Part shown: positions 696-52,449 of the stretch, one piece after another | Layout of the letters: each line of letters begins with the position of its first letter | Position numbering within the stretch: position 1 is the first letter of the stretch | From: Candidatus Hydrogenedens sp. | GTDB taxonomy: Bacteria; Hydrogenedentota; Hydrogenedentia; Hydrogenedentales; Hydrogenedentaceae | Assembly (NCBI GenBank): GCA_049968235.1 | Contig: JBMFRC010000005.1 | Coordinates: forward strand, 121,444 to 185,443 | DNA: 64,000 bases | Direction of reading: 5' to 3' | Translations under genes and position numbers: made by a program | The notes under the pieces: model-generated | Database searches by the model: none | The model's input: only the letters and a program-made list of their open reading frames with translations | What the model was told of the DNA's origin: nothing

Positions 696-699
696 GTTT

Positions 700-29660: not shown

Positions 29661-29718
29661 AATTATCTCCTTTTCGTTAATTCTCTTTGTTGTTTGTTAA
29701 ATCTATTATACAATATAA

Positions 29719-32215: not shown

Positions 32216-32321
32216 TTTGTTTCCTTTTAATTCTATAATACAGAGACTAAACATTAGTATATTATAATACTTTTGTTGCTAAAATAGATTTTTTTCAGGA
32301 GTAAGAAAAAGGAAGTCATAG

Positions 32322-37880: not shown

Positions 37881-38136
37881 GAACGCATTCCCTTTCTTAA
37901 GGTTTAGAGATTACTTTTTACATATCTATGTTAAACCGTTATAATCCTTACTTCATATTATTTACAAACTCAACGATTTTACATTTTTTTCATAACAAAA
38001 TATGTTTATATAAATAACATAAGGCAATGAATTAATAAAAGTCAAATTCATGTTTTTAAAGGACTATAACGATATATTACAAGAATTCAAAGGTAGGAAG
38101 AAATATAGTAAATAGGTAGGAATGTTTAATTTATAT

Positions 38137-38490
38137 CTATTGAGGATTTGTTATATAAGATAATTTTTTACTTAATTCAGATAGAGAGATAGGCTTTAAT
38201 AAAACATCAATAATATTGTCAGGCAATTTTTGATAATGTTTAGGATGTAAGCCTGTTAATATCAAAACCTTTGCTTGAGGTTTTAATTCCTTGAGTTTTT
38301 CCGCAGTGGTGATACCATCAATTATAGGCATATCTATATCCATCAAAATAATATCGAAATGTTCTTTTTTTACCAATTCAAGAACTTCTGATCCGTTATA
38401 GGCGAACTCTGCATTATAACCTTTAATAGAAGACCATTTCTTAAATATGTTAATTAAATTCGAGTCATCATCTACAAACAACAATCTCAT
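38137..38490 (-). CDS. single-domain response regulator (CheY-like receiver)
   Basis: 'MRLLFVDDD...DIILMDIDMP...KVLILTG' gives the acceptor Asp and conserved Lys. 117 aa, no output domain. Confidence 0.8.
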   Translation of the reverse strand: MRLLFVDDDSNLINIFKKWSSIKGYNAEFAYNGSEVLELVKKEHFDIILMDIDMPIIDGITTAEKLKELKPQAKVLILTGLHPKHYQKLPDNIIDVLLKPISLSELSKKLSYITNPQ

Positions 38491-38834
38491 TAATTAAACT
38501 CCGAATAAGCCTAAAAAATTATAGAATATCTATAATTATGTCTCTATATATATTATACTATATAACCAAATATTTGTTTCAAACTTCCTGTACATTGTAA
38601 CACTTTTTAGACATAAAAATTCCAGGTTTTTAATATAATAATAATGCAAATAAAAATTTATTTGTTAACTATTTTTATCTTGTTTTATATAAAAAACAAA
38701 TTATTATTATTTTAAAATTATTTTGTTCAGGTTAATTTTGATTTTATAATTTATTTTATGTTATACTGTTATCTATTATTCTTTGATTTAGTTCCTTTTA
38801 ATTACAATATAATTTTTGGAAGAAGGTAAGTATC

Positions 38835-39590
38835 ATGCCAAGACCTATAATTTTATTGACCAATGATGATGGTATTCATGCGAAAGGTTTATCGCATCTA
38901 TCCGAGATGATGGAAAGTATTGGAGATGTATATGTTTTCGCTCCTGACCGTGAACAGAGTGCAGTGGGACATGGTGTATCATTACGAAAACCTTTACGCG
39001 TAACGCCTGTAAAAGAAAAGTGGCATATGGTAGATGGAACACCTACGGATTGTGTAATGTTGGCGGTTCGGGATTTATTAGGAGTTAAGCCTTCTCTAAT
39101 TATTGCTGGAATAAATGCGGGGGCAAATCTCGGAGATGATGTTACTTATTCTGGAACGGTAGCAGGTGCATTTGAAGGTATGTTGTTGGGAGTTCCATCG
39201 TTTTCAATTTCTATTGTTAGCCATGAACCGGAACATTTTGAATCGGCTGGAATTTTTGCAGTAAAACTAGGTCGTTATATTTTGAAGTATGGTCTTCCTG
39301 CGGATACTATGTTAAATGTAAATGTTCCTGACCTACCTTATTCCGAATTAAAAGGTGTAGCCATAACAAAAATGGGTCGAAGAAATTACCAGGATGAGAT
39401 AATCAAAAGATATGACCCGCGTGGACAAATTTACTACTGGATAGGGGGAGCCCAGCCAACCCATATTGAGGAGCCGGGGACAGATTTTGAGGCTATTGAG
39501 CAGAATCAAATTAGTATTACACCTCTTCAACGGGATTTTACCAATCATTCTGCCCTCTCTTACTTTTATGACCCCCGTATCGAACTTTGA
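38835..39590 (+). CDS. surE: 5'/3'-nucleotidase SurE
   Basis: 'ILLTNDDGIHAKGL', 'SGINAGANLGDDVTYSGTVAGA'. Confidence 0.9.
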   Translation: MPRPIILLTNDDGIHAKGLSHLSEMMESIGDVYVFAPDREQSAVGHGVSLRKPLRVTPVKEKWHMVDGTPTDCVMLAVRDLLGVKPSLIIAGINAGANLGDDVTYSGTVAGAFEGMLLGVPSFSISIVSHEPEHFESAGIFAVKLGRYILKYGLPADTMLNVNVPDLPYSELKGVAITKMGRRNYQDEIIKRYDPRGQIYYWIGGAQPTHIEEPGTDFEAIEQNQISITPLQRDFTNHSALSYFYDPRIEL

Positions 39591-39627
39591 TGTTTTAAAT
39601 TTCCTTTATTTATGAGGGCTGTATTTT

Positions 39628-40224
39628 ATGAAATTGTTACGAAGGCTGTATGACTGGGTTTTGAGTTGGGCTGAAAGTCCTTATGGAGCATCTGCGTTAT
39701 TTCTATTAGCCTTTGCAGAATCAAGTTTTTTTCCTATTCCGCCGGATGTTCTGCTTATCGCTCTTTGTATAGGAAATCGTTTAAAATCATTCTGGTTTGC
39801 GTTTTTATGTGCGATAGGTTCAGTTATGGGAGGTGTATTTGGTTATTTAATTGGTTATAGTGTATGGATGGTGGTTCAGGACTTTTTTTTCAATTATGTC
39901 CCCGGATTTACACCGGAAACATTTGAGCATGTAAAAAATCTATATGAAAATTATAATTTTTGGATAGTTTTTGTTGCTGCTTTTACACCTATTCCTTACA
40001 AAGTTATAACTATTGCGGCGGGTGTATGCACAATTAATTTCCCTATGTTTTTGATTGCTTCTGCTATAGGAAGGTCTGCTCGATTTTTTCTCGTTAGCAC
40101 CTTGATATTTATTTTCGGTGAGAAGATACGAAATTTTATTGACCGTTGGTTTGATTGGTGTGTTGTCACATTTACTATTTTACTTATTGGTGGTTTTGTG
40201 GTAATAAAGTGGTGGGCTTCTTAG
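39628..40224 (+). CDS. YqaA/DedA-related small membrane protein
   Basis: 'SALFLLAFAESSFFPIPPDVLLIAL' is the YqaA-family signature. Confidence 0.6.
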   Translation: MKLLRRLYDWVLSWAESPYGASALFLLAFAESSFFPIPPDVLLIALCIGNRLKSFWFAFLCAIGSVMGGVFGYLIGYSVWMVVQDFFFNYVPGFTPETFEHVKNLYENYNFWIVFVAAFTPIPYKVITIAAGVCTINFPMFLIASAIGRSARFFLVSTLIFIFGEKIRNFIDRWFDWCVVTFTILLIGGFVVIKWWAS

Positions 40225-40233
40225 AAATACGGA

Positions 40234-41373
40234 TTATTTTCTTTTCGGAGCGGTAAGTTCTAAAATGATTTGTTCCGGAAAAGGAATTCTACTTTCAATA
40301 CATGACGGAATCTCAAAAACAAAGTAATCATTGTTTTCAATTTTGCATAATCCTTTAATCCTACCCCCACTGTTTATAGGGTCTCCATATACCAAAGAAC
40401 TAAATAAAGTGTTCAGTTTCCCATTTAATTGTAAATACCCATTTAAGGGTGTGTAAAAGGCAATACTCCATTGATTAAATTTATCTTTGTAAGTGAACGC
40501 ATGAGTATCAATAAAACCTATTATGTTATATACCCCTTTTTCTTGCTCTATTATGCAGGATTTACCCCAGAATTCAAATCTTTTTTTGTTATATGTAGTA
40601 ACAATATCGCCCGGTGCAAGCAAAACATTATAAGAGGGCATTGCGGGATTCCGAGAGATAATATCTATTAAAACACCATATTCCGGTCCTATATCCGATG
40701 GGTGTAATTCAATAAATGGGGTAAAGTTTGTTCCCATTCCTAGAAGAAATCCAAAAATGTTCGGAGTATAATTAGATGACTTAATGCAATATATATTGTT
40801 CGGTTCTTTTATTTTTTCAAAGGTTACAGGAAATATAGGAGTGAGCAATGATTGTATTTTGTTATTGCTTGTAAATAATAGAGAATTTTTTCCCTCTATT
40901 ATGGGAATATCTTGATTGGTAATATCCGCTCCGTTCAATATACACGATTTTATCTCTGTTTCTCCCTCCACCCAGAAAAGAACCTGACTGGAAGGCTTTA
41001 ACAGAACAAAATAATATTTCCAAATTTCTTTCCCGGTGGGGGATTCCATCTCTTCATTCCATGATATAACCTTAAAGTGTAAATTTTCGATTTTCCTTAT
41101 ATCTATATATTTCTTGTTTTTTGAAAATTCAGAATGAGTAAGATTAGTATCAAAAGATATTTGAAGTTCTCTAATAATCTGTGCGTCCTCAACCGTGTTA
41201 TGCAAACATATACAGGAACCGGTATTTTCACTACTCGGGAATGTAATATCCATGCCGGAAATATAGTTTTTCTGGGTTATATTGACATGAACACACGGCT
41301 TTGAATTCTCTAAAGAAAAGGCACTACTGTAATAAACGAAAAACAGTGAAACTAAGTACCAAATGGTTCTCAT
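40234..41373 (-). CDS. secreted hypothetical protein (379 aa)
   Basis: Signal peptide 'MRTIWYLVSLFFVYYSSAFS'. No motif. Confidence 0.45.
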   Translation of the reverse strand: MRTIWYLVSLFFVYYSSAFSLENSKPCVHVNITQKNYISGMDITFPSSENTGSCICLHNTVEDAQIIRELQISFDTNLTHSEFSKNKKYIDIRKIENLHFKVISWNEEMESPTGKEIWKYYFVLLKPSSQVLFWVEGETEIKSCILNGADITNQDIPIIEGKNSLLFTSNNKIQSLLTPIFPVTFEKIKEPNNIYCIKSSNYTPNIFGFLLGMGTNFTPFIELHPSDIGPEYGVLIDIISRNPAMPSYNVLLAPGDIVTTYNKKRFEFWGKSCIIEQEKGVYNIIGFIDTHAFTYKDKFNQWSIAFYTPLNGYLQLNGKLNTLFSSLVYGDPINSGGRIKGLCKIENNDYFVFEIPSCIESRIPFPEQIILELTAPKRK

Positions 41374-41518
41374 AACGAAACCCTATTACATTATGTGGTT
41401 TATTTCCTGTATTGTAAAATGATTTATTAGCCAAAAATACTTGTTTTCGGGTAAACTTATAGTATAGAAAAACTACATTTAATTTAAAGTGTATCGATTG
41501 GAGTTGTTTTTATAAACA

Positions 41519-43288
41519 ATGATAAATAAATTATCTTTTGCATGTTTGTTTCTCTTTTTTTTAAGTATATCTATATCGTTTGGTCAGGAAAATACTGTTT
41601 CCGCAGATATTATTCAATGGTTGGAACAAGCAGGTTATCCCACAGACCTTTTCCAGATAAAATTACAATGGATTGAATATACAAAAAAGGGGTATGTATA
41701 TGGTCTTTTGGTGGATGAAATTGCAACCGGTATAGATGAAGAAGTTTATTTTGATGAACATGGAAATAAATTGGATTTAGAAAAAATAAGAGAAATGAAT
41801 TTAACTCCCAAGAAATGGAATTCGGATATTGTAGATGTCCCAACGGGAGGTATACAAAAAAAGTCATATAAAAAAGGGAAGATAGGAAATTTATCGGCTT
41901 CAGTAAACAATGTGCAATTAAAGCCTTCTCAATACACATTCAACCTTCCTACTCCAACCTTTTTTGATAAAGAAGGCATTAATAATGAGCAGGAAAAAGG
42001 GCTATTGGAGATAGGAAAAGTGATTACTATGGATGTCCCTCTAACTCTTTTTAGAACGACATCTCCCGTTTATTTTACTCAAGAAAAAGGCAATGGTTAT
42101 TCTATTTACTCTTTGAATTTCTTTGCGGAAAATGCTATGGGAATAAAACTTCATTTTGTATTGACGGATTTATTGCCCCCTTTGCATAATCTTTACATTA
42201 TGGGAAATAATGGGGATAATGAGGTGATTCCTGTTATGGTAAGTGATAAAGATATATGGTCTCCTTTGATTTATTCATCCGAAGTTACCCTGTTCTATGT
42301 TTTGCCCGAGAGTTCCTCTTTTTCTTCTGTTCCAATAACTATTGACCAATACGCATACATATATACAGACCCGATAGAAGAAATGAAAATGCAGGGGACC
42401 TGTTATGAAGATGTAATGTGTTATGAACCGTGGAAAACTTTGAGCAAAGGTGTCGTAGGAATAGTTCGAGTTGCCGAACCGAGTGTTATTTTTTGCACGG
42501 GCAGTCTTTTGAATGATGGTAACGATGAACAATTGTCCCAGTTAATTTTAACTGCATTTCATTGTGTCAGTAATCAATCCACAGCGGAAACTCTGGAGTT
42601 CATCTGGATGTATCAAACAGTGGATTGCAAAGGGATAGTTCCTTCTATAACAAGTGTCCCCAAAACAACAGGGGGAGCGGATTTCCTTATTGGCTCCGAT
42701 ACATACTATGGAACAGATATGTCTTTATTACGTATGAAAAATGCACCACCCAATAATGTTTTAGAATTAGGATTTACAAATGCTATCATTCCTGTGGGGA
42801 CAGGTGTTGTTGCGATACACCATCCGGGTCGTTCGTATAAACGAATTTCTTTCGGTAGTATGACAGATACAGGCAGTCCATCATATAACGGGGACAATTT
42901 GCGTCCACTGGATAAATATCACGAAGTTATTTATAGTCTTAGCAGTACAGAAGCCGGCTCATCTGGCTGTCCCTTATTCCGAGAGAATACTCAACAAATT
43001 ATTGGACAACTCTGGGGGGGAAATGCCTTTTGTAATGCAATGAATGAGCCGGATTATTATGGGCGGTTTGATGTAAGTTATCCGTTAATAGAACCCTTTA
43101 TTTTTATTCCCCCAAATATCTTTGATGTCGATAATTCTGGGACGGTTGATAATAATGACTTGAACTTGGTGGTGAATGCAGTTTTGGGTATTAACTCAAC
43201 GATGAAAACCGATTTTAATAATGATAGCAGAACAGATGCCTGTGATATTCAAATATTAAGAAATAAAATATTAAGCAGGATAAAATAA
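41519..43288 (+). CDS. secreted trypsin-fold (S1) serine endopeptidase with C-terminal dockerin-like Ca-binding module
   Basis: Signal peptide. His 'LTAFHCV', Asp 'DMSLLRM', Ser 'GSSGCPLF'. C-terminus 'DVDNSGTVDNNDLNLVVNAVLG...DFNNDSRTDACDIQILRNKIL' is a duplicated dockerin type I loop-helix. Confidence 0.65.
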   Translation: MINKLSFACLFLFFLSISISFGQENTVSADIIQWLEQAGYPTDLFQIKLQWIEYTKKGYVYGLLVDEIATGIDEEVYFDEHGNKLDLEKIREMNLTPKKWNSDIVDVPTGGIQKKSYKKGKIGNLSASVNNVQLKPSQYTFNLPTPTFFDKEGINNEQEKGLLEIGKVITMDVPLTLFRTTSPVYFTQEKGNGYSIYSLNFFAENAMGIKLHFVLTDLLPPLHNLYIMGNNGDNEVIPVMVSDKDIWSPLIYSSEVTLFYVLPESSSFSSVPITIDQYAYIYTDPIEEMKMQGTCYEDVMCYEPWKTLSKGVVGIVRVAEPSVIFCTGSLLNDGNDEQLSQLILTAFHCVSNQSTAETLEFIWMYQTVDCKGIVPSITSVPKTTGGADFLIGSDTYYGTDMSLLRMKNAPPNNVLELGFTNAIIPVGTGVVAIHHPGRSYKRISFGSMTDTGSPSYNGDNLRPLDKYHEVIYSLSSTEAGSSGCPLFRENTQQIIGQLWGGNAFCNAMNEPDYYGRFDVSYPLIEPFIFIPPNIFDVDNSGTVDNNDLNLVVNAVLGINSTMKTDFNNDSRTDACDIQILRNKILSRIK

Positions 43289-43347
43289 ATTCAATGCTAA
43301 ATTTGTTATAAGTTATAATATTAAACAATGGCTGTAGGTAATGAAAA

Positions 43348-45570
43348 ATGTATAACAAAGTGATATCTATTATTTCCTTTATGTTATTTGTTATTGTTCC
43401 TGTGATATTTTCGGATGTATCATCAACAATAACATATTCTTCATTAACAGGAACCACAGATAAGTTTAAGATATTGCAAACATGGACAGAAAAAAGCATA
43501 AACAAATCAGATATGTTTCTTAAAGGGGTTATTTTTGAAAATCTACAAACAGGTGAAGTGTCCGAAGTTTATTTTCAGGGCGAGCAGATTTTATCCGAAG
43601 AACAAATTGAAGATGCAGGTATAAGGAAGAAATTAGGAAGGACAATTGGAGAGGTTTCTACTTCTGCCGAACCCGCAATTGCTATTACACCGTTAGAAAA
43701 ATTTATTAAAGAGAGAGAGGAAGTTTTTCAAGTATTGGCTAAAGCCACTACTCCACCTGTTACTATTACATTACCTTCACTTCCAAAAGAAAAATTGTTG
43801 GAAGAAGAAAAATCCGCTTCTGCCACTTTAGAAAAAGGTGTTTTTCGCATAGGAATTGTTCAATCTTTATCCAAATCTATTGAGGTTACAGGTCTTACAA
43901 GTTCAGAAGGGTTCTGGCAGGTGCTTCCCGATGCATCCTTACTCTGGATGATGGATATATACTATCCAGAAAGTTTAGGTGTTCGTGTAAGAATAGAGCC
44001 TGTAATGGAAAATCCTGTCTCAGATGCACTGTTCTGGGTGGTGGATGCTAAAAAAACGACTGAAGGTATATGGGGTCCTTTCTCTCTTCAAGAAATAAAA
44101 AAGATAGATGGTTGGTTACCCACATGTTTTACAGACAGAATAACCGTAGTTTGTTGGGTCCCAGCAGATAAAAGTGTTGAAGATGTTGTATTTAAAATTA
44201 AAGAAGTAATAGGAATATACCAGGACCCGATGTCCTTGCTTGCAAAAGCGGGAAGTTGTAATCTGGATGTTACCTGCTATCCGGATTGGTATGATACGAG
44301 TAAGGGAATAATAGGTTTAGGAATTGTAGGAACTCCTTATGCCCTTTTTTGTACAGGAACGCTAATTAATGATAATGACCCCTGCACTCAAATCCCGTAT
44401 GTTCTTACCGCAAACCATTGTGTTAATTCGCAGACAGGCACGCGGGGTGGTGATTCCCTTGAATTTTACTGGTTTTATCAGACCGCTACCTGTAATGGAG
44501 TTCCCCCTTCTTTATCCACAGTTCCACGAACAACAGGAGGGGCAGATTATCTTGCTGGAATGAGCGGAACCGCTTCTTATGGAGGAGGGAATGATTTTAC
44601 TTTATTGCGAATGAGAAATAACCCACCTGTTGGAGCAGTATATGTAGGCTGGACAACTATGGTCCCTGCTCTCGGGACATCGGTAACGGATGTTCACCAT
44701 CCTTCGGGTAGTTATAAACGAATTAGTTTCGGGTCAAAAACAAATATTGATAATCCTTTTTCTAACTTTTTTCATGAAGTCCAATGGAGTCAGGGAACAA
44801 CAGAGCCAGGTTCCTCCGGCAGTCCTTTAATGCTCACTTCTACACAGCAGATTATTGGGCAATTATGGGGAGGAGGGGCTTCTTGTAGCACGCCCGACGA
44901 GCCTGATTATTTCGGAAGGTTTGATGTTACTTACAATTTCACACAGCAATATTTAGAACAGCCTAAAGTGCGTTTCTATCAACAAACACTTACAATTACG
45001 GAGGCAAATACAACAAAACAAATGCTTGTTTTGCTAAGTTCACCTGCCCGGACTTCAGAAAGTAGTGTGGAATTAGAAATAGAAACTATCAATGCCCAGC
45101 AGGGAATAGACTTTACTATTTCTCCCAATCCTGTATCCTTCTCGCAGAATGCTACACAAGCAAATGTAACAATAACTTTTTTTGACAATACACATACGGA
45201 ATCAGACAAAACGGTGAGAATAACCTTCCGTAATCCTCTATGCATACGATTTGATACAACCAATCAGATGTATGAAATCACAATTTTGGACAATGACATT
45301 GACTCAGATGGAGATGGTCTATCTGATTATGACGAAAGTAATGGAGTATTCGGATATGTTTCCGACCCTAACAAAACAGATACGGATAATGATGGTATAT
45401 CCGATTATGATGAGGTTCGTGGAACTTATGGTTTTATTACAAATCCGTCTCATCGAGATACAGATGGTGACCGTGTGAATGATTGGCTTGAAATCCACAA
45501 TGGCACTGACCCAACTGACCCTTATGATGCTCCTCCCCTTCCTTCGTTATTTATCCCATGGTTTAACTAA
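43348..45570 (+). CDS. paralogous secreted S1 serine endopeptidase with C-terminal beta-domain and thrombospondin-type-3-like Ca-binding repeats
   Basis: Signal peptide. 'LTANHCV', 'DFTLLRM', 'GSSGSPLM'; same block order as upstream paralog. 'DSDGDGLSDYDE', 'DTDNDGISDYDE', 'DTDGDRVNDWLE' repeats. Confidence 0.65.
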   Translation: MYNKVISIISFMLFVIVPVIFSDVSSTITYSSLTGTTDKFKILQTWTEKSINKSDMFLKGVIFENLQTGEVSEVYFQGEQILSEEQIEDAGIRKKLGRTIGEVSTSAEPAIAITPLEKFIKEREEVFQVLAKATTPPVTITLPSLPKEKLLEEEKSASATLEKGVFRIGIVQSLSKSIEVTGLTSSEGFWQVLPDASLLWMMDIYYPESLGVRVRIEPVMENPVSDALFWVVDAKKTTEGIWGPFSLQEIKKIDGWLPTCFTDRITVVCWVPADKSVEDVVFKIKEVIGIYQDPMSLLAKAGSCNLDVTCYPDWYDTSKGIIGLGIVGTPYALFCTGTLINDNDPCTQIPYVLTANHCVNSQTGTRGGDSLEFYWFYQTATCNGVPPSLSTVPRTTGGADYLAGMSGTASYGGGNDFTLLRMRNNPPVGAVYVGWTTMVPALGTSVTDVHHPSGSYKRISFGSKTNIDNPFSNFFHEVQWSQGTTEPGSSGSPLMLTSTQQIIGQLWGGGASCSTPDEPDYFGRFDVTYNFTQQYLEQPKVRFYQQTLTITEANTTKQMLVLLSSPARTSESSVELEIETINAQQGIDFTISPNPVSFSQNATQANVTITFFDNTHTESDKTVRITFRNPLCIRFDTTNQMYEITILDNDIDSDGDGLSDYDESNGVFGYVSDPNKTDTDNDGISDYDEVRGTYGFITNPSHRDTDGDRVNDWLEIHNGTDPTDPYDAPPLPSLFIPWFN

Positions 45571-46477
45571 TATTTAATTCTTTTGCATTCTCATAAATAA
45601 ACCGGATATGAAGGATAGTCCTGTAAGTATTTGCATATTAAATTACAATTATAATCACGATAATTATGTTTGTGTTTCAGAGGGATTATTTATAATTGAG
45701 ACTTCTAAACAGGTGGTGTAAGAGGTAAGGGTATAAGTAATATATGTTTTTACGAGATAAAATCTCGATGAGAAAATAAAATACAAGAGTCTGTATCTCT
45801 ATTTTACCCATTTTATTTGTTATTTTTCGTCAGTTCTTCTATCTTCTTATTACCTATGCATATCTCCCTTCTTACTCCCTTAATCCCCATACATCCACTT
45901 CAAATCATATGCAGTCATTAACAATAAATGATATGTTCCTCTCTCTGTGTCCTCTGTACCCCTCCATATCCTCCGTGGTGAAAAAAAGTAAAAAGATCTC
46001 TGAGTTCTTCCGTGTCTTTCGTGGTGGAAAAAGAAATAATCACCACAGAAAACACAGAGAAATACGGAGAAAAAAGTCGTTTTACTACCACCATTCAAAT
46101 TACTTGCAAAAAGAACTTAAAGAAGTCATCACTCACAGACAAACAATAAACAAAATAGTAAAGACGGAAGTCTCCACTCTCCCCAGTTTGACTTATACAC
46201 TCCCCTCTACTCATCTACATTCCAATTTCTCCCCCAGGGTTATCCTTTACATCACTCTCAAACATTTCTCTCATTATGTCGGTCTTTATTTTGTTACTGC
46301 ATAATCCAAAAACTCACCTGCTTTACCAATTCCATCATACCACGCATTTTCTTTTCCCTTACCCTTCCTGTATCTAATCTTTCATATACTATTTATCGTA
46401 TATGTTTTATTCAGAGGTCTCCAATGCTTTTTCCCAATAATTATTTGGCGGTAGTAAACACGGACTTACCCTATCAA

Positions 46478-49051
46478 TTAAATCGTGATTAGCAAAGAAA
46501 TAGGTCTGTCTTTTTCCATATCTGTTGTAAGGGACAAAATTCCTTCATTGTTGATATGGAATTGAGAAAATTTTGAACCATTCAGATATACTTTGATTTG
46601 ACCGGAGGAGGAACGAATAGATGGATTTAATTTGATGCATAAGTTTATACTTCCGTAGCACACAGGGGAATATCGTAATTCAATTTTTTCCGGTTCATAG
46701 CTATAAGAAATAAGGGTTGTGTGTAGATGGAAGTTATTAAATGGCAGGTTGGGGTTAATAAATAAAGAACCTTTATGGGGACAGAGACCGAACATTTTCA
46801 ATACTGCGAATAAGATACTTGCATGACAATTCATATTCATTATGGGGAATTGCGTCATAGGTGTAAAGTTCAGGCAGAAAGTTTCCCCCGCTCGTGGATG
46901 TTCCGCAGAATTATAAGCATCCGGTCCAGACCAAATTCCATACCAAATATGTGGGTAAACCTCTGCATGGGTGAAAAGTGTATTTTTCAGCAGGAAATCC
47001 CATGCTTCCTGAGGATTGCATTCTGACCATGCCCATGATAACCATGCATTAATGGCATACCATACTCCACCATTTGTATCGGAACCGGGCTCTAAAAACC
47101 TACCTTGCATCGGAGGAACAAGACAGGTAGCACCGAAAGGTTGTGTATCAACGCAATTCTCTTTTATGGTTTTGATTAATCTATTTTTTTCTCTGTTATC
47201 TAATAGGTTAGCGAGAATTGCAAAAGGTTGAACATCTAAAAATAAATTGTCCTCTCCTAATTTTCTATCTCCTATACCCGTATATCCCCGGGGAAACCAT
47301 TTCTCATTCCACAAAGATTTGAGTATTTCCCGTTGTGTTTGTGCAAAGTCATTCATACTTGTTGATAGAAGGGAATTATAAGGTTGTATCCATTGGGCTA
47401 TTTCCGGTAAAACAAGCACAGACATTGCTGAATTAAAAACAGATTCACCCTTCAATATAGTAATGGGAGGAAACGGCGAAAAGGCAAGAAATACATCATT
47501 CCAATCACCCGTGCCACTTCTAATTAATCCATGCTTCCCTGTAGATACTTTATGAGTTAGATGATAAAATGCTCTTTCAATATGCGACAGGAATGGTGCT
47601 CCATGCGAGAAATGTTTATTTTGAAAGGGAACTTCTTCATAAAGTAGTGTTGTATCGAAAGTTGCCCCCAGATATTCGGAAATAGCCCAAAGAAAGAATA
47701 AATCAAAATCGGAACTCCATGAATGCACTCCGGCTCCTGTAGATTTCCCATTTCCAACAAGAGCATAAGGTAACTTTCCTGTCTTTGTATCCTGTAATTG
47801 TCCCAGAAAGAGCAACATTTCGCGGGCAAGGCCAGGACGGAGGTAAATTAATGGAATAATAAAAAATGCCCAATCACGCGGAGCCCCGGAAGCCCCATGA
47901 ATAAACCCGTATGCAGAACCCTGGTCAACAAAATAACGATTAAAATATTCGGAATACACACATCCGGCTTGAAGGTAATAGGAATGCCATTGTAGTTCTC
48001 TATCGATAGGCTCTTTTAGTTCAGGTATATAAATAGCAACATATCTTGTATCTCTTTTTGTATCTGTCGAAAAACTATATTTTGATTTATACTCCCTAAC
48101 TTTTTCTATAGAACCATATCCAACTAAATATCTCCGGATAATTTCTTCGTCTCCTCTTAAAAGAATCTTTTCTACAAAACTTAAAAGGTTACAATACTTA
48201 TCCGAGGTTTTCCTTCTTTGAGAAAATATTTTTTCATCACAAAATGAATGGATAAAACTCTCCAGGAGAATTTTATTTGTAAATAGATATTGTGGGGTTT
48301 GATTATTTAAAGAGGATATAAAAAAGGTATCAACAGGTAAGACGGACCATGAACTTTTTCTATCGCTCTGTTTTTTATGTATGAATTGAACAATGACTGT
48401 ATCTTTATCGGTTATACATTGGGCGCGGTTCTGGATGCTCCTTCCTTTCTTTTTACGAAGCATGTTCCAGAATTTGTTATATGGAGGTGTCATAACAAGC
48501 CCCGGATTGATTGGGAACCAGTTCGGTTCCCATATCGGAATCACATATAGATTTTGAGTTTTTTGAGTATTATTTTTTATTTTTAATTCATGAATAAGTA
48601 TAGAATCTTTTCCATCTGGAGCGGAAAAGGTTTCCTCTACACACAAACATGAGTTCTCAACGATTTTGTGAATATATCCACAACCCCAAATAATCTCATA
48701 GTGTGTATTATTATGAGTATTTTCAAGATATGTACATAATCTCGTTTTATCTGAAAAAATCCAGCAGTATCCTCCTCCCTTCATATCGTGTTCAGGGTCG
48801 TAACAATTAAGAATTTGTGGACCCCTGTCCCATGCATATATTTGCACGAACCCCTTTGCATGTGCTGTTGCTGTGATGTGGTCATTCCCGACGAGATGCC
48901 AGACATCTGTATCCATTGTTTTTTCGATATTCAAGTGATAGCAGGGGTTCCCGTGTTTATCTTTATTCCAATACCCAAACTGACCTGCCCCAACATCGGG
49001 ACATACATTAAACGAATTTTCAAAGACTTCCGAAGTGGAAATAGACTGCAT
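46478..49051 (-). CDS. large (alpha/alpha)6 six-hairpin glycoside hydrolase/phosphorylase-like protein (GH94/GH116-like)
   Basis: 857 aa. 'SGTGDWNDVF' (the GDWND motif of six-hairpin glycosidases/phosphorylases), 'GGVWYAINAWLSWAW'. No signal peptide. Family not resolved. Confidence 0.45.
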   Translation of the reverse strand: MQSISTSEVFENSFNVCPDVGAGQFGYWNKDKHGNPCYHLNIEKTMDTDVWHLVGNDHITATAHAKGFVQIYAWDRGPQILNCYDPEHDMKGGGYCWIFSDKTRLCTYLENTHNNTHYEIIWGCGYIHKIVENSCLCVEETFSAPDGKDSILIHELKIKNNTQKTQNLYVIPIWEPNWFPINPGLVMTPPYNKFWNMLRKKKGRSIQNRAQCITDKDTVIVQFIHKKQSDRKSSWSVLPVDTFFISSLNNQTPQYLFTNKILLESFIHSFCDEKIFSQRRKTSDKYCNLLSFVEKILLRGDEEIIRRYLVGYGSIEKVREYKSKYSFSTDTKRDTRYVAIYIPELKEPIDRELQWHSYYLQAGCVYSEYFNRYFVDQGSAYGFIHGASGAPRDWAFFIIPLIYLRPGLAREMLLFLGQLQDTKTGKLPYALVGNGKSTGAGVHSWSSDFDLFFLWAISEYLGATFDTTLLYEEVPFQNKHFSHGAPFLSHIERAFYHLTHKVSTGKHGLIRSGTGDWNDVFLAFSPFPPITILKGESVFNSAMSVLVLPEIAQWIQPYNSLLSTSMNDFAQTQREILKSLWNEKWFPRGYTGIGDRKLGEDNLFLDVQPFAILANLLDNREKNRLIKTIKENCVDTQPFGATCLVPPMQGRFLEPGSDTNGGVWYAINAWLSWAWSECNPQEAWDFLLKNTLFTHAEVYPHIWYGIWSGPDAYNSAEHPRAGETFCLNFTPMTQFPIMNMNCHASILFAVLKMFGLCPHKGSLFINPNLPFNNFHLHTTLISYSYEPEKIELRYSPVCYGSINLCIKLNPSIRSSSGQIKVYLNGSKFSQFHINNEGILSLTTDMEKDRPISLLITI

Positions 49052-49059
49052 GAGATTTC

Positions 49060-49872
49060 TTATTCAGGATGTTTTTCGATTTTTGTGGCATCTACTAATG
49101 ATTTTACATATTTAACAAAATCATCTTTCCATTGAGGATTATTCGTATGCTCTTTCAAATATCGAACAAAAGCGGAACCAACAATCACACCATCAGATAC
49201 AGAAGCGACAAAGGAAGCATGTTCCGGTTTAGATATACCAAATCCGACCAGAATGGGCAAATTGGTGTATTTCTTTATCCGTTCCACAGATGTAGATAAG
49301 TCTGTAGCAATATTATCTTTTTCACCGGTAACACCTAATCGCGACACATAATACACAAATCCAGAACATTTTTGGACGATATGTTGTATCCGTTCTTCAG
49401 GACTATTCGGAGCCACTAAAAAAACCGTTGATAGGTGATTTTTTTCTGCTTCTGTTTTATAAGTATCCGCTTCTTCCACAGGTAAATCTACACAGAGTAT
49501 TCCGTCCACACCGGCTTCTGCTGACTTTCTTAGGAATGCAGGGATTCCCTGGACAAGAACTGGGTTAAAATAGGTAAAAAGGAGAATGGGGATTTCCGTT
49601 TTTTTTCGTATATGGGCAATCCATTCCAGAACCTTTGTGGGAGTAGTTCCTTTTAATAGTGACTGATACGAAGCATCTTGAATAATCGGTCCATCACCGA
49701 CCGGATCTGAAAAAGGAACGCCTACTTCTACAATATCAACACCGGCTTCATTCATCGCAAGTATAATTGTTTCAAAATAATCCGGTGAAGGATAACCAGC
49801 AGTTATATATGCTACGAAAGTTTTTTCGTTTTTTTGTTTTAATGTTTTCAATTTTTCTTCAATTCTGTTCAT
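49060..49872 (-). CDS. trpA: tryptophan synthase alpha chain
   Basis: 'FVAYITAGYPSPDYF...VDIVEVGVPFSDPVGDGPIIQ', 'GFGISKPEH'. Start set at 'MNRIEEKL' 4 nt after the trpB stop; track start 49926 is alternative. Confidence 0.9.
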   Translation of the reverse strand: MNRIEEKLKTLKQKNEKTFVAYITAGYPSPDYFETIILAMNEAGVDIVEVGVPFSDPVGDGPIIQDASYQSLLKGTTPTKVLEWIAHIRKKTEIPILLFTYFNPVLVQGIPAFLRKSAEAGVDGILCVDLPVEEADTYKTEAEKNHLSTVFLVAPNSPEERIQHIVQKCSGFVYYVSRLGVTGEKDNIATDLSTSVERIKKYTNLPILVGFGISKPEHASFVASVSDGVIVGSAFVRYLKEHTNNPQWKDDFVKYVKSLVDATKIEKHPE

Positions 49873-49876
49873 ATTT

Positions 49877-51103
49877 TTATGTGTCCAGTTTGATAAATTT
49901 TGATGCATGTTCAACATCTTTATCACCCCGACCGGAAAGGTTCACAAGAATGATATGGTCTTTGGGTCTGCGGGGAGCTTCTTTTAATACATACGCAATA
50001 GCATGAGAACTTTCCAATGCTGGAATTATCCCTTCTAATCGGGCACATAACTGAAATGCGTTCAATGCTTCGTCATCCATAGCATAGGTATATTTAACTC
50101 TGCCGGAAGAATAAAGCCATGCATGTTCCGGTCCGACACTGGCGTAATCCAGACCTGCGGATATGCTATGAGTAGTTCCAATTTGACCGTATTCATCCTG
50201 TAACACATAACTTTGGGCACCATGCAACATTCCGAAACTTCCACCTGCGAATCGTGCTGCATGCATTCCGGGTGCAATGGCTTTACCACCTGCTTCAACA
50301 CCAACCATTTCAATATCTTTATCATTTAAAAATTCATAAAACAATCCCATAGCATTGCTACCCCCACCGACGCAGGCAACCAGCATATTGGGTATTTTGC
50401 CTGTTTTTTCGAGAATTTGTTGTCGGGCTTCTATCCCGATAATTTTTTGGAATTCCCGACATATCCATGGGAAAGGATGAGGTCCATGGACTGTCCCTAA
50501 AACATAATGAGTATTCTTCACATTCAACGACCAATCGCGTAGCGCCTCATTAATAGCATCTTTTAATGTTTTGCTACCTGCATCAACACCTATAACCTGG
50601 GCACCTAATAGTCGCATACGAAATACATTTAATCGTTGTCGCTCCATATCTTCAGTACCCATATAAATACAGCAGTCCAGATCTAACAATGCGGATGCGG
50701 TAGCGGTTGCGACACCATGTTGACCGGCCCCTGTTTCTGCAATTACACGCGTTTTCCCCATTCGCTTTGTTAATAAACACTGACCTAAGGCATTATTAAT
50801 TTTGTGAGCACCCGTATGAGCCAGATCTTCTCGCTTAAAGTATATCCGGGCACCTCCTAAATATTCTGTCAATCGTTGGGCAAAATGTAAAGGTGTCGGT
50901 CTACCTACATAATCCCGAGCATAATTTTGAAAGGTGTTCTGAAATTCTGTATCTTCGCGTGCGGAACGGAAAACTCGCTCCAATTCCTCTAATGCGGAAA
51001 ATAAAGTTTCGGGGACAAAACGCCCGCCGAAATCTCCATATCTGCCTTTATCATCAGGATAAGGCGTTTTTTGCTCTGTAAATAAATTCTCTGACAAGAT
51101 TCG
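49877..51103 (-). CDS. trpB: tryptophan synthase beta chain
   Basis: '[15 protein letters not shown]', PLP-Lys 'HTGAHKINN', 'GGGSNAMG'. Start uncertain (M29 of track ORF used; overlaps trpF by ~50 nt). Confidence 0.9.
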
Positions 51104-51671
51104 CATCCTTCTTACCGGGATATTCTTCCACCCCTGTGGATACATCAACCGCATAAGGGCGGACTTTTTGAACGGCTTCAACAACATTATCTATATTTAA
51201 TCCCCCCGCAAGAATAATCGGTTTTCCTGTTTCCACTGCTTCTCGGGCTTTTTCCCAATTGCAGACTTCTCCCGTGCCACCATGGGCTTTACCTATCTTC
51301 GTATCAAGCAAATAACCCCGAACTTTATAGGACAGCATATTTTTGAGAGAGAAATGTTCATCAACAGCGAAAGATTTGATAATAGATTGTCCTAATGGAA
51401 TGTCCTCCGCTGTTTCTTCGCCACTCATCTGTATGAGGTCAAAGTAGGTTAGATACCGAACCCAATTTTCCATTGGCTCATTTACAATAACACCTATTGT
51501 GGTAACAAAAGGAGGAATTACTTCCAATATTTCAATAGCTTCTTCAAAGGGGACATAACGATTTCGCACCTTTGCTTCCGGAGCCATAACAATTCCGATA
51601 GCATCTGCTCCAGCATCACATGCCATTAGTGCATCTTCTTTGTTTGTGATACCACAAATTTTAACCTTCAT
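51054..51671 (-). CDS. trpF: phosphoribosylanthranilate isomerase
   Basis: '[26 protein letters not shown]'. 205 aa. Confidence 0.85.
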
Positions 51672-52449
51672 ACTTACCTTTTCCTAAAAGCCATTGAATA
51701 AAATCCTCAGGCTTTCGACTATATAAAATTGATTCTCCAATAAGAAAAGATTGGACACCGTGTTCGTAAAATTTTTGTATTGTTTGGGGATGGCTTATCC
51801 CACTTTCACTCACTACAATATAATCCTCAGGGATGTTTTTTTTCAACCGTAGTGTCGTTTCTATATCTACTTCAAGTGTATCGAGGTCACGGTTGTTAAT
51901 ACCTATAATCTTTGCACCTGCATCTATGGCTCGTTCAACTTCATTTTCATTATGCACCTCCACCAGAGGTTCCATTTCTAATTCGCGGGTTAGACTTAAA
52001 AAATCTTTCAACTGCATATCTGATAAAATTCGGACAATCAACAGAAGTGTATCCGCATGATGGACTCGCGTTTCATAAATTTGATATTCGTCAATAATAA
52101 ATTCTTTACGGAGGCAGGGTATCTGAACCGTGTGATGTGCTTCCGTAAGGTCCTGCAAACTACCGTGGAAATATTTAGCATCTGTCAATACAGAAATAGC
52201 GGATGCACCAGCCGTTTGATACCTAAAAGATAATTCCGAAGGATTTAAATCTTCCCATATCGGTCCCCTTGATGGAGAATGCCTTTTGATTTCTGCAATA
52301 AGGGTAGGACCTGTATGCATTAAAGCAGAGATGAAGCAACGCGGTTTCTCGGTACTTTTTATCTTTTCATACAGAGACACTATGGAGATTTCTCTTTTTC
52401 TGTCTTGAATTTCAATCTTTTTATTTCGAACTATTTCATCTAAAATCAT
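51661..52449 (-). CDS. trpC: indole-3-glycerol phosphate synthase
   Basis: 'MILDEIVRNKKIEI', 'LIAEIKRHSPSRG', 'GINNRDL'. Confidence 0.88.
   Translation of the reverse strand: MILDEIVRNKKIEIQDRKREISIVSLYEKIKSTEKPRCFISALMHTGPTLIAEIKRHSPSRGPIWEDLNPSELSFRYQTAGASAISVLTDAKYFHGSLQDLTEAHHTVQIPCLRKEFIIDEYQIYETRVHHADTLLLIVRILSDMQLKDFLSLTRELEMEPLVEVHNENEVERAIDAGAKIIGINNRDLDTLEVDIETTLRLKKNIPEDYIVVSESGISHPQTIQKFYEHGVQSFLIGESILYSRKPEDFIQWLLGKGKYEG

What the first reader, a model, noticed from the sequence alone, without database searches (positions are those of the whole stretch)
41519..45570. Tandem paralogous secreted S1 serine proteases with different Ca-binding anchoring tails (dockerin-like vs TSP3-like)
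Two adjacent same-strand genes (589 and 740 aa) share signal peptides, an N-terminal ~250-aa domain of unknown function, and a trypsin-fold catalytic domain with intact triad context ('TAxHCV', 'D[MF][ST]LLRM', 'GSSG[CS]PL'). Even the block 'QQIIGQLWGG' is conserved. Their C-termini diverge. Gene 1 ends in a complete dockerin type I-like duplicated Ca loop-helix, implying cohesin-like partner docking. Gene 2 ends in a Calx/CARDB-like beta domain plus three thrombospondin-type-3 D-x-D-x-D-G repeats. Gene 1 carries a G7 tract (43014-43020) in the conserved WGG codons that gene 2 avoids with synonymous codons.
Basis: partly seen in the sequence, partly recalled or inferred. Interest (0 to 1): 0.55.

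Follow-up and report, generated by a model that had tools for sequence, protein, structure and literature searches.

The report
Paired lysine-specific protease precursors, different anchors
Two neighbouring genes of an uncultured Hydrogenedens bacterium encode secreted precursors of lysine-cutting serine proteases, relatives of the well-studied Lys-C and Pseudomonas protease IV enzymes, that differ in their calcium-binding tails; this is a recognisable enzyme type in a new arrangement.

Summary
Genes 41519-43288 (589 aa) and 43348-45570 (740 aa) are same-strand paralogs, 32% identical over about 560 aa. Pfam matches above threshold support a Dockerin_1 tail on gene 1 and Calx-beta plus three TSP3 repeats on gene 2.

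The classification can be made much sharper. Both belong to the lysyl endopeptidase family (Achromobacter protease I, Lysobacter Lys-C, Pseudomonas protease IV). They keep the catalytic triad, the S1-pocket Asp225 equivalent and all six disulfide cysteines.

The "N-terminal domain of unknown function" is the family's inhibitory pro-region. It contains a CUB-like beta-sandwich homologous to the protease IV propeptide. A conserved Lys sits at the pro/mature junction, and the mature domains are Lys-poor.

The organism is Candidatus Hydrogenedens sp. The pair is an old duplication. Twenty-seven species-level genomes, nearly all Hydrogenedentota, keep it in the same order, with the Calx/TSP3 gene always second.

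In six of those pairs the dockerin is replaced by a C-terminal transmembrane anchor. This supports a surface-anchoring role for the tail. No cohesin partner was found, though the test was weak. The G7 tract is a chance codon choice.

Verdict: a known enzyme kind with new tail variants and a conserved gene pairing. Interest is modest.

The parts
41374..41518 (+). Upstream intergenic region shared with the divergent gene 40234-41373; presumed promoter region of the pair
   Evidence: It is 77-80% identical at the DNA level to the same position in L004, L005, L006 and L065. The consensus promoter scan was not above background.
41519..43288 (+). Gene 1: 589-aa lysyl-endopeptidase-family precursor with a C-terminal dockerin
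   Evidence: ORF. Pfam. PDB hits 9omd_A at 4.8e-24 and 4nsy/4nsv/1arb at ~1e-17. AF2 model with mean pLDDT 85.6. Top Foldseek matches are 4nsv/4nsy/1arb.
41519..41584 (+). Gene 1 signal peptide (aa 1-22, MINKLSFACLFLFFLSISISFG|QE)
   Evidence: Read directly from the sequence. Hydrophobic 15-mer with KD 2.49 at aa 5-19 and no other TM-like segment. The cleavage site is inferred.
41585..42004 (+). Gene 1 pro-region, N-terminal part (Cap-like: folded alpha/beta unit at aa 29-95, then a low-confidence linker)
   Evidence: AF2 secondary structure and pLDDT. By position it corresponds to the Cap of the protease IV precursor. Equivalence of function is inferred.
42005..42361 (+). Gene 1 pro-region, CUB-like beta-sandwich (aa 163-281)
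   Evidence: Strands at 163-281 in the AF2 model. The N-domain profile A3 hits the protease IV propeptide 9omd_I at E=8.5e-7 over this part. Homologs carry PF27052 Lysyl_endopep_N.
42386..42388 (+). Lys290, predicted pro/mature processing site (EEMK|MQGTC)
   Evidence: A Lys lies 2-8 residues (mostly 4-6) before the first mature Cys in 90 of 97 family members, although Lys is only 2.4% of residues overall. The cleavage itself is inferred.
42389..43108 (+). Gene 1 mature protease domain (aa 291-530): His348, Asp400, Ser482, S1 Asp512; Cys295/301/326/349/370/505
   Evidence: All of these are invariant columns in a 56-sequence alignment. Positions are given. Aligned to Lys-C and protease IV.
43014..43020 (+). 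G7 run in the W499-G500-G501 codons
   Evidence: Present. Not conserved in orthologs and not in excess in the window. Judged a chance synonymous-codon outcome.
43109..43285 (+). Gene 1 dockerin type I module (aa 531-589): two Ca loops (aa 536-547 and 565-576), each followed by a helix
   Evidence: Pfam Dockerin_1 at 23.8 bits against 22.9. Loops. Helices at 545-555 and 574-588 with pLDDT 77-92. Loop positions 1 and 12 are invariant in 37 orthologs. The profile hits 2ccl_B/1ohz_B at E~1e-9.
43289..43347 (+). 59-bp spacer between the two genes; probable co-transcription
   Evidence: No terminator-like site lies between the genes. In other genomes the two reading frames abut or overlap.
43348..45570 (+). 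Gene 2: 740-aa lysyl-endopeptidase-family precursor with a Calx-beta plus TSP3 tail
   Evidence: ORF. Pfam. PDB hits 4nsv/4nsy at 8.5e-25 and 9omd/1arb at ~4e-22. P0079, a 740-aa NCBI protein from a Candidatus Hydrogenedens MAG, is 100% identical to gene 2 over the N-terminal region compared (aa 21-298).
43348..43413 (+). Gene 2 signal peptide (aa 1-22, approximate)
   Evidence: Hydrophobic 15-mer with KD 2.88 at aa 6-20. The cleavage site is inferred.
43414..44247 (+). Gene 2 pro-region (aa 23-300): Cap-like part, then CUB-like beta-sandwich (aa ~169-290), ending at Lys300 (LLAK|AGSC)
44248..44958 (+). Gene 2 mature protease domain (aa 301-537): His357, Asp416, Ser490, S1 Asp520; Cys304/310/335/358/382/513
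   Evidence: Positions. Alignment to Lys-C. These columns are at least 90% conserved in the 62-sequence alignment.
44959..45294 (+). Gene 2 Calx-beta domain (aa 538-649)
   Evidence: Pfam Calx-beta at 32.5 bits against a cutoff of 27.
45301..45492 (+). Gene 2 three TSP3-type Ca-binding repeats (aa 652-663, 678-689, 704-715)
   Evidence: Pfam TSP3_bac, 3 stretches, 26.8 bits against 25. Motifs DSDGDGLSDYDE, DTDNDGISDYDE and DTDGDRVNDWLE.
45553..45564 (+). Conserved C-terminal I-P-W-F motif (aa 736-739) of the Calx/TSP3 paralog
   Evidence: The pattern [IVLAM]P[WLFYI][FYVIWH] occurs in the last 22 aa of 39 of 41 Calx-type members and 0 of 45 dockerin-type members. Function unknown.

Best explanation
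The two genes form a probably co-transcribed pair of secreted zymogens of the lysyl endopeptidase family. This is the clade of S1 serine proteases that contains Achromobacter protease I, Lysobacter Lys-C and Pseudomonas aeruginosa protease IV.

Each protein is built in this order: a Sec signal peptide; an inhibitory pro-region made of a Cap-like segment and a CUB-like beta-sandwich; a disulfide-bonded trypsin-fold domain with a Lys-selecting S1 pocket; and a C-terminal Ca-binding tail.

Proposed mechanism:
1. After export, the pro-region keeps the enzyme inactive.
2. The pro-region is removed by cleavage after a conserved Lys a few residues before the mature N-terminus, either by the enzyme itself or by its paralog.
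3. The Lys-rich pro-region is then degraded, while the Lys-poor mature domain survives.
4. The tails decide where each enzyme stays. The dockerin on gene 1, and the Calx-beta, TSP3 repeats and terminal I-P-W-F motif on gene 2, hold the enzymes at the cell surface or in the matrix in a Ca-dependent way.

The outcome would be two differently placed Lys-specific proteases that digest external protein for a bacterium living on polymers and detritus.

Shown here: family membership, conserved catalytic and specificity residues, homology of the pro-region, domain identity of the tails, and age and order-conservation of the pair. Inferred: Lys specificity, autoprocessing, co-transcription, and anchoring.
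For: Family:
- phmmer against the PDB gives only lysyl endopeptidases, with E from 8.5e-25 to 3e-17.
- Foldseek with the AF2 model ranks 4nsv/4nsy/1arb first.

Residues:
- His, Asp, Ser, the Asp aligned with Asp225 of protease I (EPDY[YF]GR), and six Cys are invariant or at least 90% conserved across 56 and 62 homologs.

Pro-region:
- Homologs are annotated PF27052 Lysyl_endopep_N.
- The profile of 72 N-domains hits the protease IV propeptide chain 9omd_I at E=8.5e-7.
- This matches the Cap-CUB-protease precursor structure of protease IV, whose pro-region blocks the cleft and is removed by self-processing (bioRxiv 10.64898/2026.09.07.749839).

Processing and specificity:
- Lys lies 2-8 residues before the first mature Cys in 90 of 97 members.
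- Lys makes up 2.9% and 1.3% of the two mature domains, against 7.5% and 8.3% of the pro-regions and 6.5% on average in other window ORFs.
- Family-wide, the catalytic domain has less Lys than the N-domain in 83 of 92 members.

Operon:
- 59-bp spacer with no terminator.
- Abutting or overlapping frames in 26 of the 27 other pairs.

Ancient conserved pair:
- 27 pairs among 73 species-level loci, always with the Calx/TSP3 gene second.
- Flanking genes differ between lineages.
- The NJ tree largely separates first-gene and second-gene clades.

Anchoring:
- In 6 pairs the dockerin is replaced by a C-terminal motif plus TM helix plus Arg cluster.
- One Calx-type member replaces the P-W-F end with a TM helix plus Arg cluster.
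- Other family members carry PKD, He_PIG, Kre9-like Ig or PASTA tails.
Against: - No enzyme assay, so Lys specificity rests on one aligned Asp and on composition.
- His210 of protease I is Trp in both proteins, so pocket details differ.
- The Cap-like part is about 135 aa and partly folded, against about 65 aa and largely unstructured in protease IV. Only the CUB part aligned to the propeptide. I could not inspect model coordinates to see whether it covers the cleft.
- Neither window protein matched PF27052 here, because that model is missing from the local Pfam copy.
- The route across the outer membrane is unknown.
- No binding partner for either tail was identified.
- 33 informative singleton loci show the pairing is not obligatory.
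- The NJ tree has a few misplaced members (L002, L033, L034, L056 second genes) and carries no support values.
Confidence: 0.72

Rival explanations
1. Cellulosome-like docking. The gene 1 dockerin binds a cohesin module on a scaffold or anchoring protein encoded elsewhere in the genome, so that the protease is one component of a multi-enzyme surface complex.
For: The tail is a true type I dockerin homolog: Pfam above cutoff, a profile hit to the cohesin-bound Xyn10B dockerin 1ohz_B/2ccl_B at E~1e-9, and both Ca loops intact and conserved. Other Hydrogenedentota proteins carry the same dockerin type, for example a 1404-aa Big_12/beta-helix ORF followed by a dockerin ORF in the same MAG as L015/L052. 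Many dockerin fragments in the database are named as Hydrogenedentes proteins.
Against: No Cohesin hit in the 35 of the window's 43 ORFs of at least 150 aa that were scanned with Pfam. No cohesin-like hit by phmmer with CipA cohesin 2 in 937 kb of window plus related loci, though this single-sequence test has low power. No cohesin in the gene tables around other dockerin genes. From my own knowledge (Peer et al. 2009, not re-read here), dockerin-like modules are common in genomes that have no detectable cohesins. In some lineages the dockerin is swapped for a membrane anchor, so a scaffold is not essential to the pair.
Confidence: 0.25
2. Heteromeric pair. The dockerin of gene 1 binds gene 2 itself, through the Calx-beta sandwich acting as a cohesin-like receptor or through the conserved C-terminal P-W-F motif. 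Gene 2 in turn is fixed to the envelope by its TSP3 repeats. The pair would then be a minimal two-protease surface complex.
For: Strict conservation of gene order and adjacency in 27 species-level genomes despite changing neighbours. The P-W-F motif is conserved in 39 of 41 Calx-type members and has no assigned role. Calx-beta, like cohesin, is a beta-sandwich (general knowledge).
Against: 15 dockerin-type genes have no adjacent partner and 7 Calx-type genes have none. 8 pairs keep the Calx/TSP3 gene although the first gene lacks a dockerin. No complex prediction or co-variation test could be run. Operon linkage of paralogs is also explained by shared regulation.
Confidence: 0.1
3. Transient tails. 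As with the C-terminal extension of Achromobacter protease I, the tails would only assist export or folding and would be cleaved off, leaving two free soluble proteases with no anchoring.
For: From my own knowledge, the protease I precursor has a C-terminal extension of about 180 aa that is absent from the mature enzyme. Gene 2 has a Lys (K538) at the protease/Calx-beta boundary.
Against: That Lys is not conserved in the family consensus. Gene 1 has no Lys between aa 466 and 562. The tails are recognised adhesion or Ca-binding modules and are Lys-poor (1.1-2.7% in gene 2), which fits persistence next to a Lys-specific protease. Replacement of the tails by TM anchors in orthologs points to retention.
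Confidence: 0.12
4. Recent local tandem duplication giving redundant copies, with tails acquired by chance domain shuffling and no functional partition.
For: The genes are adjacent, on the same strand, and share architecture up to the tail.
Against: The paralogs are only 32% identical, whereas orthologs in Ca. H. terephthalaticus are 77% identical. First and second genes mostly form separate clades across the phylum. Order and tail type are conserved in 27 genomes.
Confidence: 0.03

Closest known systems
Pseudomonas aeruginosa protease IV (PIV / PrpL, lysyl endopeptidase; PDB 9OMD; precursor structure in bioRxiv 10.64898/2026.09.07.749839)
   Same: Same order of parts: signal peptide, pro-region with a CUB domain, then a trypsin-fold Lys-specific protease. 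Gene 1's protease domain hits 9omd_A at E=4.8e-24. The N-domain profile hits the PIV propeptide at E=8.5e-7. Triad, S1 Asp and cysteines align.
   Different: PIV ends with the protease domain and has no C-terminal module. Its Cap is short (aa 25-90) and largely unstructured, whereas here the pre-CUB part is about 135 aa with a folded alpha/beta unit. PIV is a single gene, not a paralog pair. Identity is low (about 30% or less).
Achromobacter lyticus protease I and Lysobacter enzymogenes Lys-C (PDB 1ARB, 4GPG, 4NSV, 4NSY; MEROPS family S1, lysyl endopeptidase, cited from memory)
   Same: Best sequence and fold matches of the catalytic domain. These residues all have aligned counterparts: His57, Asp113, Ser194, Asp225, and Cys6, 12, 36, 58, 80 and 216. 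The precursor has both N- and C-terminal extensions (own knowledge).
   Different: His210 is Trp here. The C-terminal extensions here are recognised Ca-binding or adhesion modules. About 29% identity over the aligned region.
Type I dockerins of Clostridium thermocellum cellulosomal enzymes (e.g. Xyn10B dockerin, PDB 1OHZ_B/2CCL_B)
   Same: Duplicated 12-residue Ca loop plus helix, of the same length. Profile match at E~1e-9. Pfam Dockerin_1.
   Different: Attached to a protease in a presumably diderm, non-cellulosomal phylum. The helix motif is D-[LV]-Q-L-V-x-N-A-x-L-G rather than the Ser-Thr recognition pair of the clostridial type (the comparison is from my own knowledge). No cohesin partner is known.
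Bacterial TSP3-repeat surface proteins (Myxococcus CglD and MtsD; TSP3_bac, PF18884)
   Same: D-x-D-x-D-G-x-x-D-x-x-E Ca-binding repeats. There are weak NCBIfam matches to CglD (5.7e-7) and MtsD over aa 624-725.
   Different: Far below those families' cutoffs (27.7 bits against 400), so only the repeat type is shared. Here the repeats follow a protease and a Calx-beta domain.

Membership tests
Lysyl endopeptidase family (S1; protease I / Lys-C / protease IV) | Significant sequence and fold similarity of the catalytic domain to characterised members | tested here: met
   phmmer E from 8.5e-25 to 2.9e-17, with lysyl endopeptidases as the only PDB hits at E<=0.01. Foldseek ranks 1-3 are 4nsv/4nsy/1arb.
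Lysyl endopeptidase family (S1; protease I / Lys-C / protease IV) | Catalytic triad His57/Asp113/Ser194 | tested here: met
   Gene 1 H348/D400/S482 and gene 2 H357/D416/S490. Aligned, invariant, at least 90% conserved.
Lysyl endopeptidase family (S1; protease I / Lys-C / protease IV) | Acidic S1 residue at the Asp225 position that selects Lys | tested here: met
   D512 (gene 1) and D520 (gene 2) align with the Asp of 's-D-y-y-G-R' in Lys-C and are invariant. Its role in Lys selection comes from the literature on protease I (own knowledge). describes an electronegative S1 pocket in protease IV.
Lysyl endopeptidase family (S1; protease I / Lys-C / protease IV) | Three disulfides (six conserved Cys) | tested here: met
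   All six Cys are present in both proteins and invariant in the family. Disulfide formation itself is not testable here.
Lysyl endopeptidase family (S1; protease I / Lys-C / protease IV) | N-terminal inhibitory pro-region containing a CUB domain (Pfam PF27052 Lysyl_endopep_N) | tested here: met
Lysyl endopeptidase family (S1; protease I / Lys-C / protease IV) | Cleavage after Lys; self-processing of the precursor | not testable with these tools
   Only indirect support: junction Lys in 90 of 97 members and Lys-poor mature domains.
Dockerin type I (Pfam PF00404) | Profile match above the curated cutoff | tested here: met
   23.8 bits against 22.9 for gene 1, which is marginal. 30.3 bits for homolog P0020. 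The family profile hits solved dockerins at E~1e-9.
Dockerin type I (Pfam PF00404) | Two Ca-binding loops with Asp/Asn/Ser ligands at positions 1, 3, 5, 9 and 12, each followed by a helix | tested here: met
   Loops DVDNSGTVDNND and DFNNDSRTDACD. Positions 1 and 12 of both loops are invariant in 37 orthologs. Helices at 545-555 and 574-588.
Dockerin type I (Pfam PF00404) | Binds a cohesin module | not testable with these tools
   No cohesin in the window ORFs scanned or in 937 kb of loci by a low-power search. The rest of the genome is not available.
Calx-beta (Pfam PF03160) | Profile match above the curated cutoff | tested here: met
   32.5 bits against 27, aa 538-649, nearly full profile coverage.
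Bacterial TSP3 repeats (Pfam PF18884) | Profile match above the cutoff and repeated D-x-D-x-D-G-x-x-D motif | tested here: met
   26.8 bits against 25, three stretches. Three motifs at aa 652, 678 and 704.

The most novel reading that the evidence does not exclude
The conserved gene pair encodes a minimal two-protease surface complex. The dockerin of the first enzyme docks onto the second enzyme, either on its Calx-beta sandwich or on its invariant C-terminal P-W-F end. The second enzyme is fixed to the outer envelope by its TSP3 repeats. This would be a cohesin-independent dockerin partnership dedicated to proteolysis, and a phylum-wide trait of Hydrogenedentota.
Probability: 0.1. Interest if true: 0.6.

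Novelty: new variant of a known kind. Interest (0 to 1): 0.3.

Why it matters
Lysyl endopeptidases are known from a few Proteobacteria, as a proteomics reagent (Lys-C) and as a virulence factor (protease IV).

This work adds three things:
- The same zymogen design (Cap/CUB pro-region plus Lys-type S1 pocket) is widespread in the uncultured phylum Hydrogenedentota.
- In that phylum it has been fitted with interchangeable surface-retention tails: dockerin, Calx-beta/TSP3, TM anchors, PKD and Ig-like modules.
- It is kept there as an ordered pair of old paralogs.

The finding gives a concrete, testable handle on how these polymer-degrading bacteria attack extracellular protein. It also provides a set of natural tail swaps that could show what non-cellulosomal dockerins do. 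It may be a source of new Lys-specific proteases. It does not reveal a new kind of system.

Tried and rejected
- **G7 tract as a slippage or phase-variation site.** Rejected. The tract is not conserved in any close ortholog. 64 of 75 family genes have only G4 at this site. The window's G7 count is at expectation.
- **One copy as an inactive pseudo-protease or inhibitor.** Rejected. Both copies keep the triad and the S1 Asp.
- **Recent duplication.** Rejected.
- **RNA elements.** No tRNA or Rfam family anywhere in the window.
- **Promoter and terminator scans.** At background level; they show only that no terminator lies between the genes.
- **NCBIfam.** Gave no family for gene 1 and only far sub-threshold repeat matches for gene 2. 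It gave no match for the alternative C-terminal anchor tails.
- **AlphaFold-database fold search of the N-domain.** The library was unavailable.
- **Database search with the dockerin profile.** Returned almost only short fragments of 100 aa or less, so it says little about which enzymes carry this dockerin.
- **Context look-ups of two stand-alone dockerin ORFs.** These appear to be split C-termini of larger surface proteins, and no cohesin lies nearby.
- **Cohesin search with a single CipA cohesin sequence.** Negative but insensitive.
- **PDB search with the Calx/TSP3 tail.** No hits.
- **Literature searches on Hydrogenedentota proteases, dockerins or cohesins.** Nothing specific.
- **Upstream divergent gene 40234-41373.** It is syntenic only in the closest lineages (L001, L004-L006) and absent next to the pair in L002/L003, so it was not counted as part of the unit.

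Full report

Yes. The two ORFs are exactly where stated: 41519..43288 (589 aa) and 43348..45570 (740 aa), both on the + strand. They align over about 560 residues at 32% identity (E=4e-81). The similarity stops where the tails begin.

Pfam places the following domains:
- Trypsin_2 in both proteins.
- Dockerin_1 at aa 535-585 of gene 1, just above the curated cutoff (23.8 against 22.9 bits).
- In gene 2, Calx-beta at aa 538-649 (32.5 against 27 bits) and three TSP3_bac stretches (26.8 against 25 bits).

Both N-termini look like Sec signal peptides: a Lys at position 4, then a hydrophobic core, with no other membrane-like segment. The two dockerin Ca loops and the three TSP3 motifs are intact. 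The G7 run at 43014-43020 is present.

**2. What the catalytic domain is**

A search of all solved structures returns only lysyl endopeptidases for both proteins: Lysobacter Lys-C (4nsv/4nsy), Achromobacter protease I (1arb), and 9omd, deposited as "Lysyl endopeptidase". E-values run from 8.5e-25 to 3e-17. 9omd is the mature Pseudomonas protease IV complexed with its propeptide, according to the paper read.

An AlphaFold model of gene 1 has mean pLDDT 85.6 and pTM 0.82. Its top three Foldseek matches are the same Lys-C enzymes.

Conserved residues:
- The triad is H348/D400/S482 in gene 1 and H357/D416/S490 in gene 2.
- The Asp that aligns with Asp225 of protease I, the residue that selects Lys in that enzyme (own knowledge), is D512 in gene 1 and D520 in gene 2.
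- All six cysteines of the three protease I disulfides are present.
- All of these are invariant or at least 90% conserved across the homologs aligned.
- One known protease I residue differs: His210 is Trp in both proteins.

**3. What the N-terminal region is**

It is not an unknown domain. More distant homologs that align across it carry the recent Pfam family PF27052, named Lysyl_endopep_N in the gene tables. That model is absent from the local Pfam copy.

A profile of 72 N-regions from this family hits the chain "Lysyl endopeptidase propeptide" of 9omd at E=8.5e-7 over the beta-sandwich.

A recent preprint describes the protease IV precursor as Cap region, CUB domain and protease domain. 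In that structure the Cap lies over the catalytic cleft, and the whole pro-region is removed by self-processing (bioRxiv 10.64898/2026.09.07.749839). The window's proteins therefore share the precursor design of protease IV. Their pre-CUB part is longer and partly folded.

**4. Indirect evidence for Lys-directed processing**

A Lys lies 2-8 residues before the first mature Cys, mostly at positions -4 to -6, in 90 of 97 family members. Lys is only 2.4% of residues in these proteins. In the window these are K290 (EEMK|MQGTC) and K300 (LLAK|AGSC).

The mature domains are Lys-poor, at 2.9% and 1.3%. The pro-regions have 7.5% and 8.3%, and other window ORFs average 6.5%. Across the family, 83 of 92 members have less Lys in the protease domain than in the N-domain.

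This pattern is what one expects of a Lys-specific protease that must cut off and destroy its own pro-region without destroying itself. It is not proof.

**5. Organism and distribution**

Database hits 100% identical over the regions compared are named Candidatus Hydrogenedens sp.: P0001 over 83% of gene 1, and P0079 over aa 21-298 of gene 2. The region 38000-45578 is 82% identical in DNA to Ca. Hydrogenedens terephthalaticus.

A scan of one genome per species returned 365 relatives, of which the best 80 stretches (77 loci) were fetched. Of those, 73 are independent of the loci fetched earlier. Nearly all are labelled Hydrogenedentota, with a few Verrucomicrobiota or Kiritimatiellia at the far end. 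Several are labelled "uncultured Nitrospirales", probably a labelling problem.

Classifying every family gene in those loci with home-made profiles gave the following:
- 27 adjacent same-strand pairs, all in the same order, with the Calx/TSP3 gene second.
- Of these, 19 are dockerin then Calx/TSP3, and 8 are other tail then Calx/TSP3.
- No pair is in the reverse order.
- 33 singletons have enough flanking sequence to be informative.

The genes flanking the pair differ between lineages, so the pair travels as a unit. A neighbour-joining tree of the protease domains puts most second genes in one clade and most first genes in another. Together with 32% paralog identity against 77% ortholog identity, this means an old duplication.

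The spacer in the window is 59 bp with no terminator. In 26 of the 27 other pairs the frames abut or overlap. Co-transcription is likely but not shown.

**6. The tails**

The dockerin reading is sound at the domain level:
- Loop positions 1 and 12 of both repeats are invariant in 37 orthologs.
- Both helices are predicted with good confidence.
- The family profile finds the Clostridium thermocellum Xyn10B dockerin (1ohz_B, 2ccl_B) at E~1e-9.

What it binds is open:
- No cohesin was seen in the 35 window ORFs scanned.
- A single-sequence cohesin search of 937 kb found nothing, but that test is weak.
- The genome beyond the window is not available to me.

The most informative evidence is comparative:
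- In six pairs the first gene has no dockerin. Instead it ends in G-C-[QH]-W-F-K, a hydrophobic helix and an Arg cluster, which is the layout of a C-terminal membrane-anchor sorting signal.
- One Calx-type member likewise ends in a helix plus Arg cluster.
- Other family members carry PKD, He_PIG, Kre9-like Ig or PASTA tails.

Tails that can be exchanged for membrane anchors are most simply explained as devices that keep the enzyme at the cell surface.

The Calx/TSP3 paralogs also share a C-terminal [IVLAM]-P-[W/L/F]-F motif. It occurs in 39 of 41 of them and in 0 of 45 dockerin-type members. I cannot explain it.

**7. The G7 tract**

It arises because the first Gly of W-G-G uses GGG. Close orthologs use GGC, GGA or GGT there. 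Only 8 of 75 family genes have a run of 7 or more at this site. The window holds 3 G7 runs against about 4 expected. I treat it as chance.

**8. Verdict**

Its interpretation is partly right:
- The enzymes can be named much more precisely, as lysyl endopeptidase precursors.
- The "unknown" N-domain is the known pro-region.
- Cohesin docking is unproven.
- The G7 tract is uninformative.

What is new relative to characterised members is the set of Ca-binding or anchoring tails and the order-conserved paralog pair across Hydrogenedentota. That makes this a new variant of a known kind, of modest interest.

The most novel reading still open is that the two enzymes bind each other through the dockerin. 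I give that about 10%.

Noticed in passing
window 45553-45564 (gene 2 aa 736-739); also the C-termini of second genes in L001-L079: The Calx/TSP3-type paralogs end in a conserved motif [IVLAM]-P-[W/L/F]-F, usually within 1-12 residues of the C-terminus. It is found in 39 of 41 of them and in 0 of 45 dockerin-type members. No known sorting signal or Pfam/NCBIfam family accounts for it.
   Followed up: partly
L023:2350-4074, L029:5932-7701, L031:2663-4465, L032:5929-7722, L075:5731-7428, L079:5566-7620 (also L022:4566-6335): In these orthologs the first gene of the pair has no dockerin. It ends in an acidic stretch, G-C-[QH]-W-F-K, a hydrophobic helix and an Arg-rich end, which is the layout of a C-terminal anchor or sorting signal. 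There is no NCBIfam match, so it may be an undescribed sorting tag. Its W-F-K resembles the P-W-F-K end of the partner gene.
   Followed up: partly
window 45571-46477: A 907-bp stretch without a convincing gene lies between the convergent ends of gene 2 and the GH94-like gene. The only ORF there is 131 aa, Lys/Arg/His-rich and of low complexity. Synteny with Ca. H. terephthalaticus (L004) stops exactly at the end of gene 2. No Rfam family and no notable repeats were found.
   Followed up: partly
window 40234-41373 (-): A 379-aa secreted-looking protein with no Pfam family is encoded divergently, just upstream of gene 1. The same arrangement (SurE, VTT-domain protein, this gene, then the pair) occurs in L001 and L004-L006, but not in L002/L003.
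   Followed up: partly
window 58682-63295 (+), 57091-58680 (+), 13379-14935 (+), 17060-18328 (+), 18600-19382 (+): Five sizeable ORFs (1537, 529, 518, 422 and 260 aa) have no Pfam match at E<=0.001. The 1537-aa one is the largest unexplained gene in the window.
   Followed up: no
window 46478-49051 (-): An 857-aa protein with a GH94-superfamily catalytic domain (cellobiose/chitobiose phosphorylase-like; 64.9 bits) is convergent with gene 2. This fits a polymer-degrading lifestyle.
   Followed up: no
L001:11740-14006: In this MAG the second gene of the pair is called as a 155-aa ORF plus a 556-aa ORF that lacks most of the pro-region. It is probably a frameshift, pseudogene or assembly error.
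   Followed up: no
loci L009-L011, L018-L021, L031, L034, L036, L037, L041, L044, L050, L051, L062, L063, L065 (record titles): Many MAGs titled 'uncultured Nitrospirales/Nitrospiraceae bacterium' (binchicken/SRP co-assemblies) carry loci that are clearly of the Hydrogenedentota type. L065 is 55% identical to gene 1 and syntenic. The submitted taxonomy labels look wrong.
   Followed up: no
L082:5812-10288 and L081:8862-10216: Short ORFs annotated as stand-alone dockerins directly follow, or overlap the end of, larger ORFs: a 1404-aa Big_12/beta-helix/CarboxypepD_reg protein and a 369-aa protein. They are probably split C-termini. This shows that other Hydrogenedentota surface proteins carry the same dockerin type.
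   Followed up: partly
PDB 8x39_A / 8x3a_A: A solved chain of about 151 aa named 'Serine protease' matches the dockerin profile at E~1e-5 (aa 6-60). A structure of a protease-borne dockerin therefore exists and could guide comparison.
   Followed up: no
window 676-1623 (+) and 56117-56935 (-): Two flagellin genes lie 55 kb apart. The window also holds rpoB/rpoC (3768-11808), a SurA-like chaperone (12102-13052), FloA/NfeD (28620-32254) and trp genes (49060-52449), which fits a motile diderm bacterium.
   Followed up: no
window 28369-28375 and 57390-57396: These are the only other G7 runs in the window. They were not examined for coding context.
   Followed up: no
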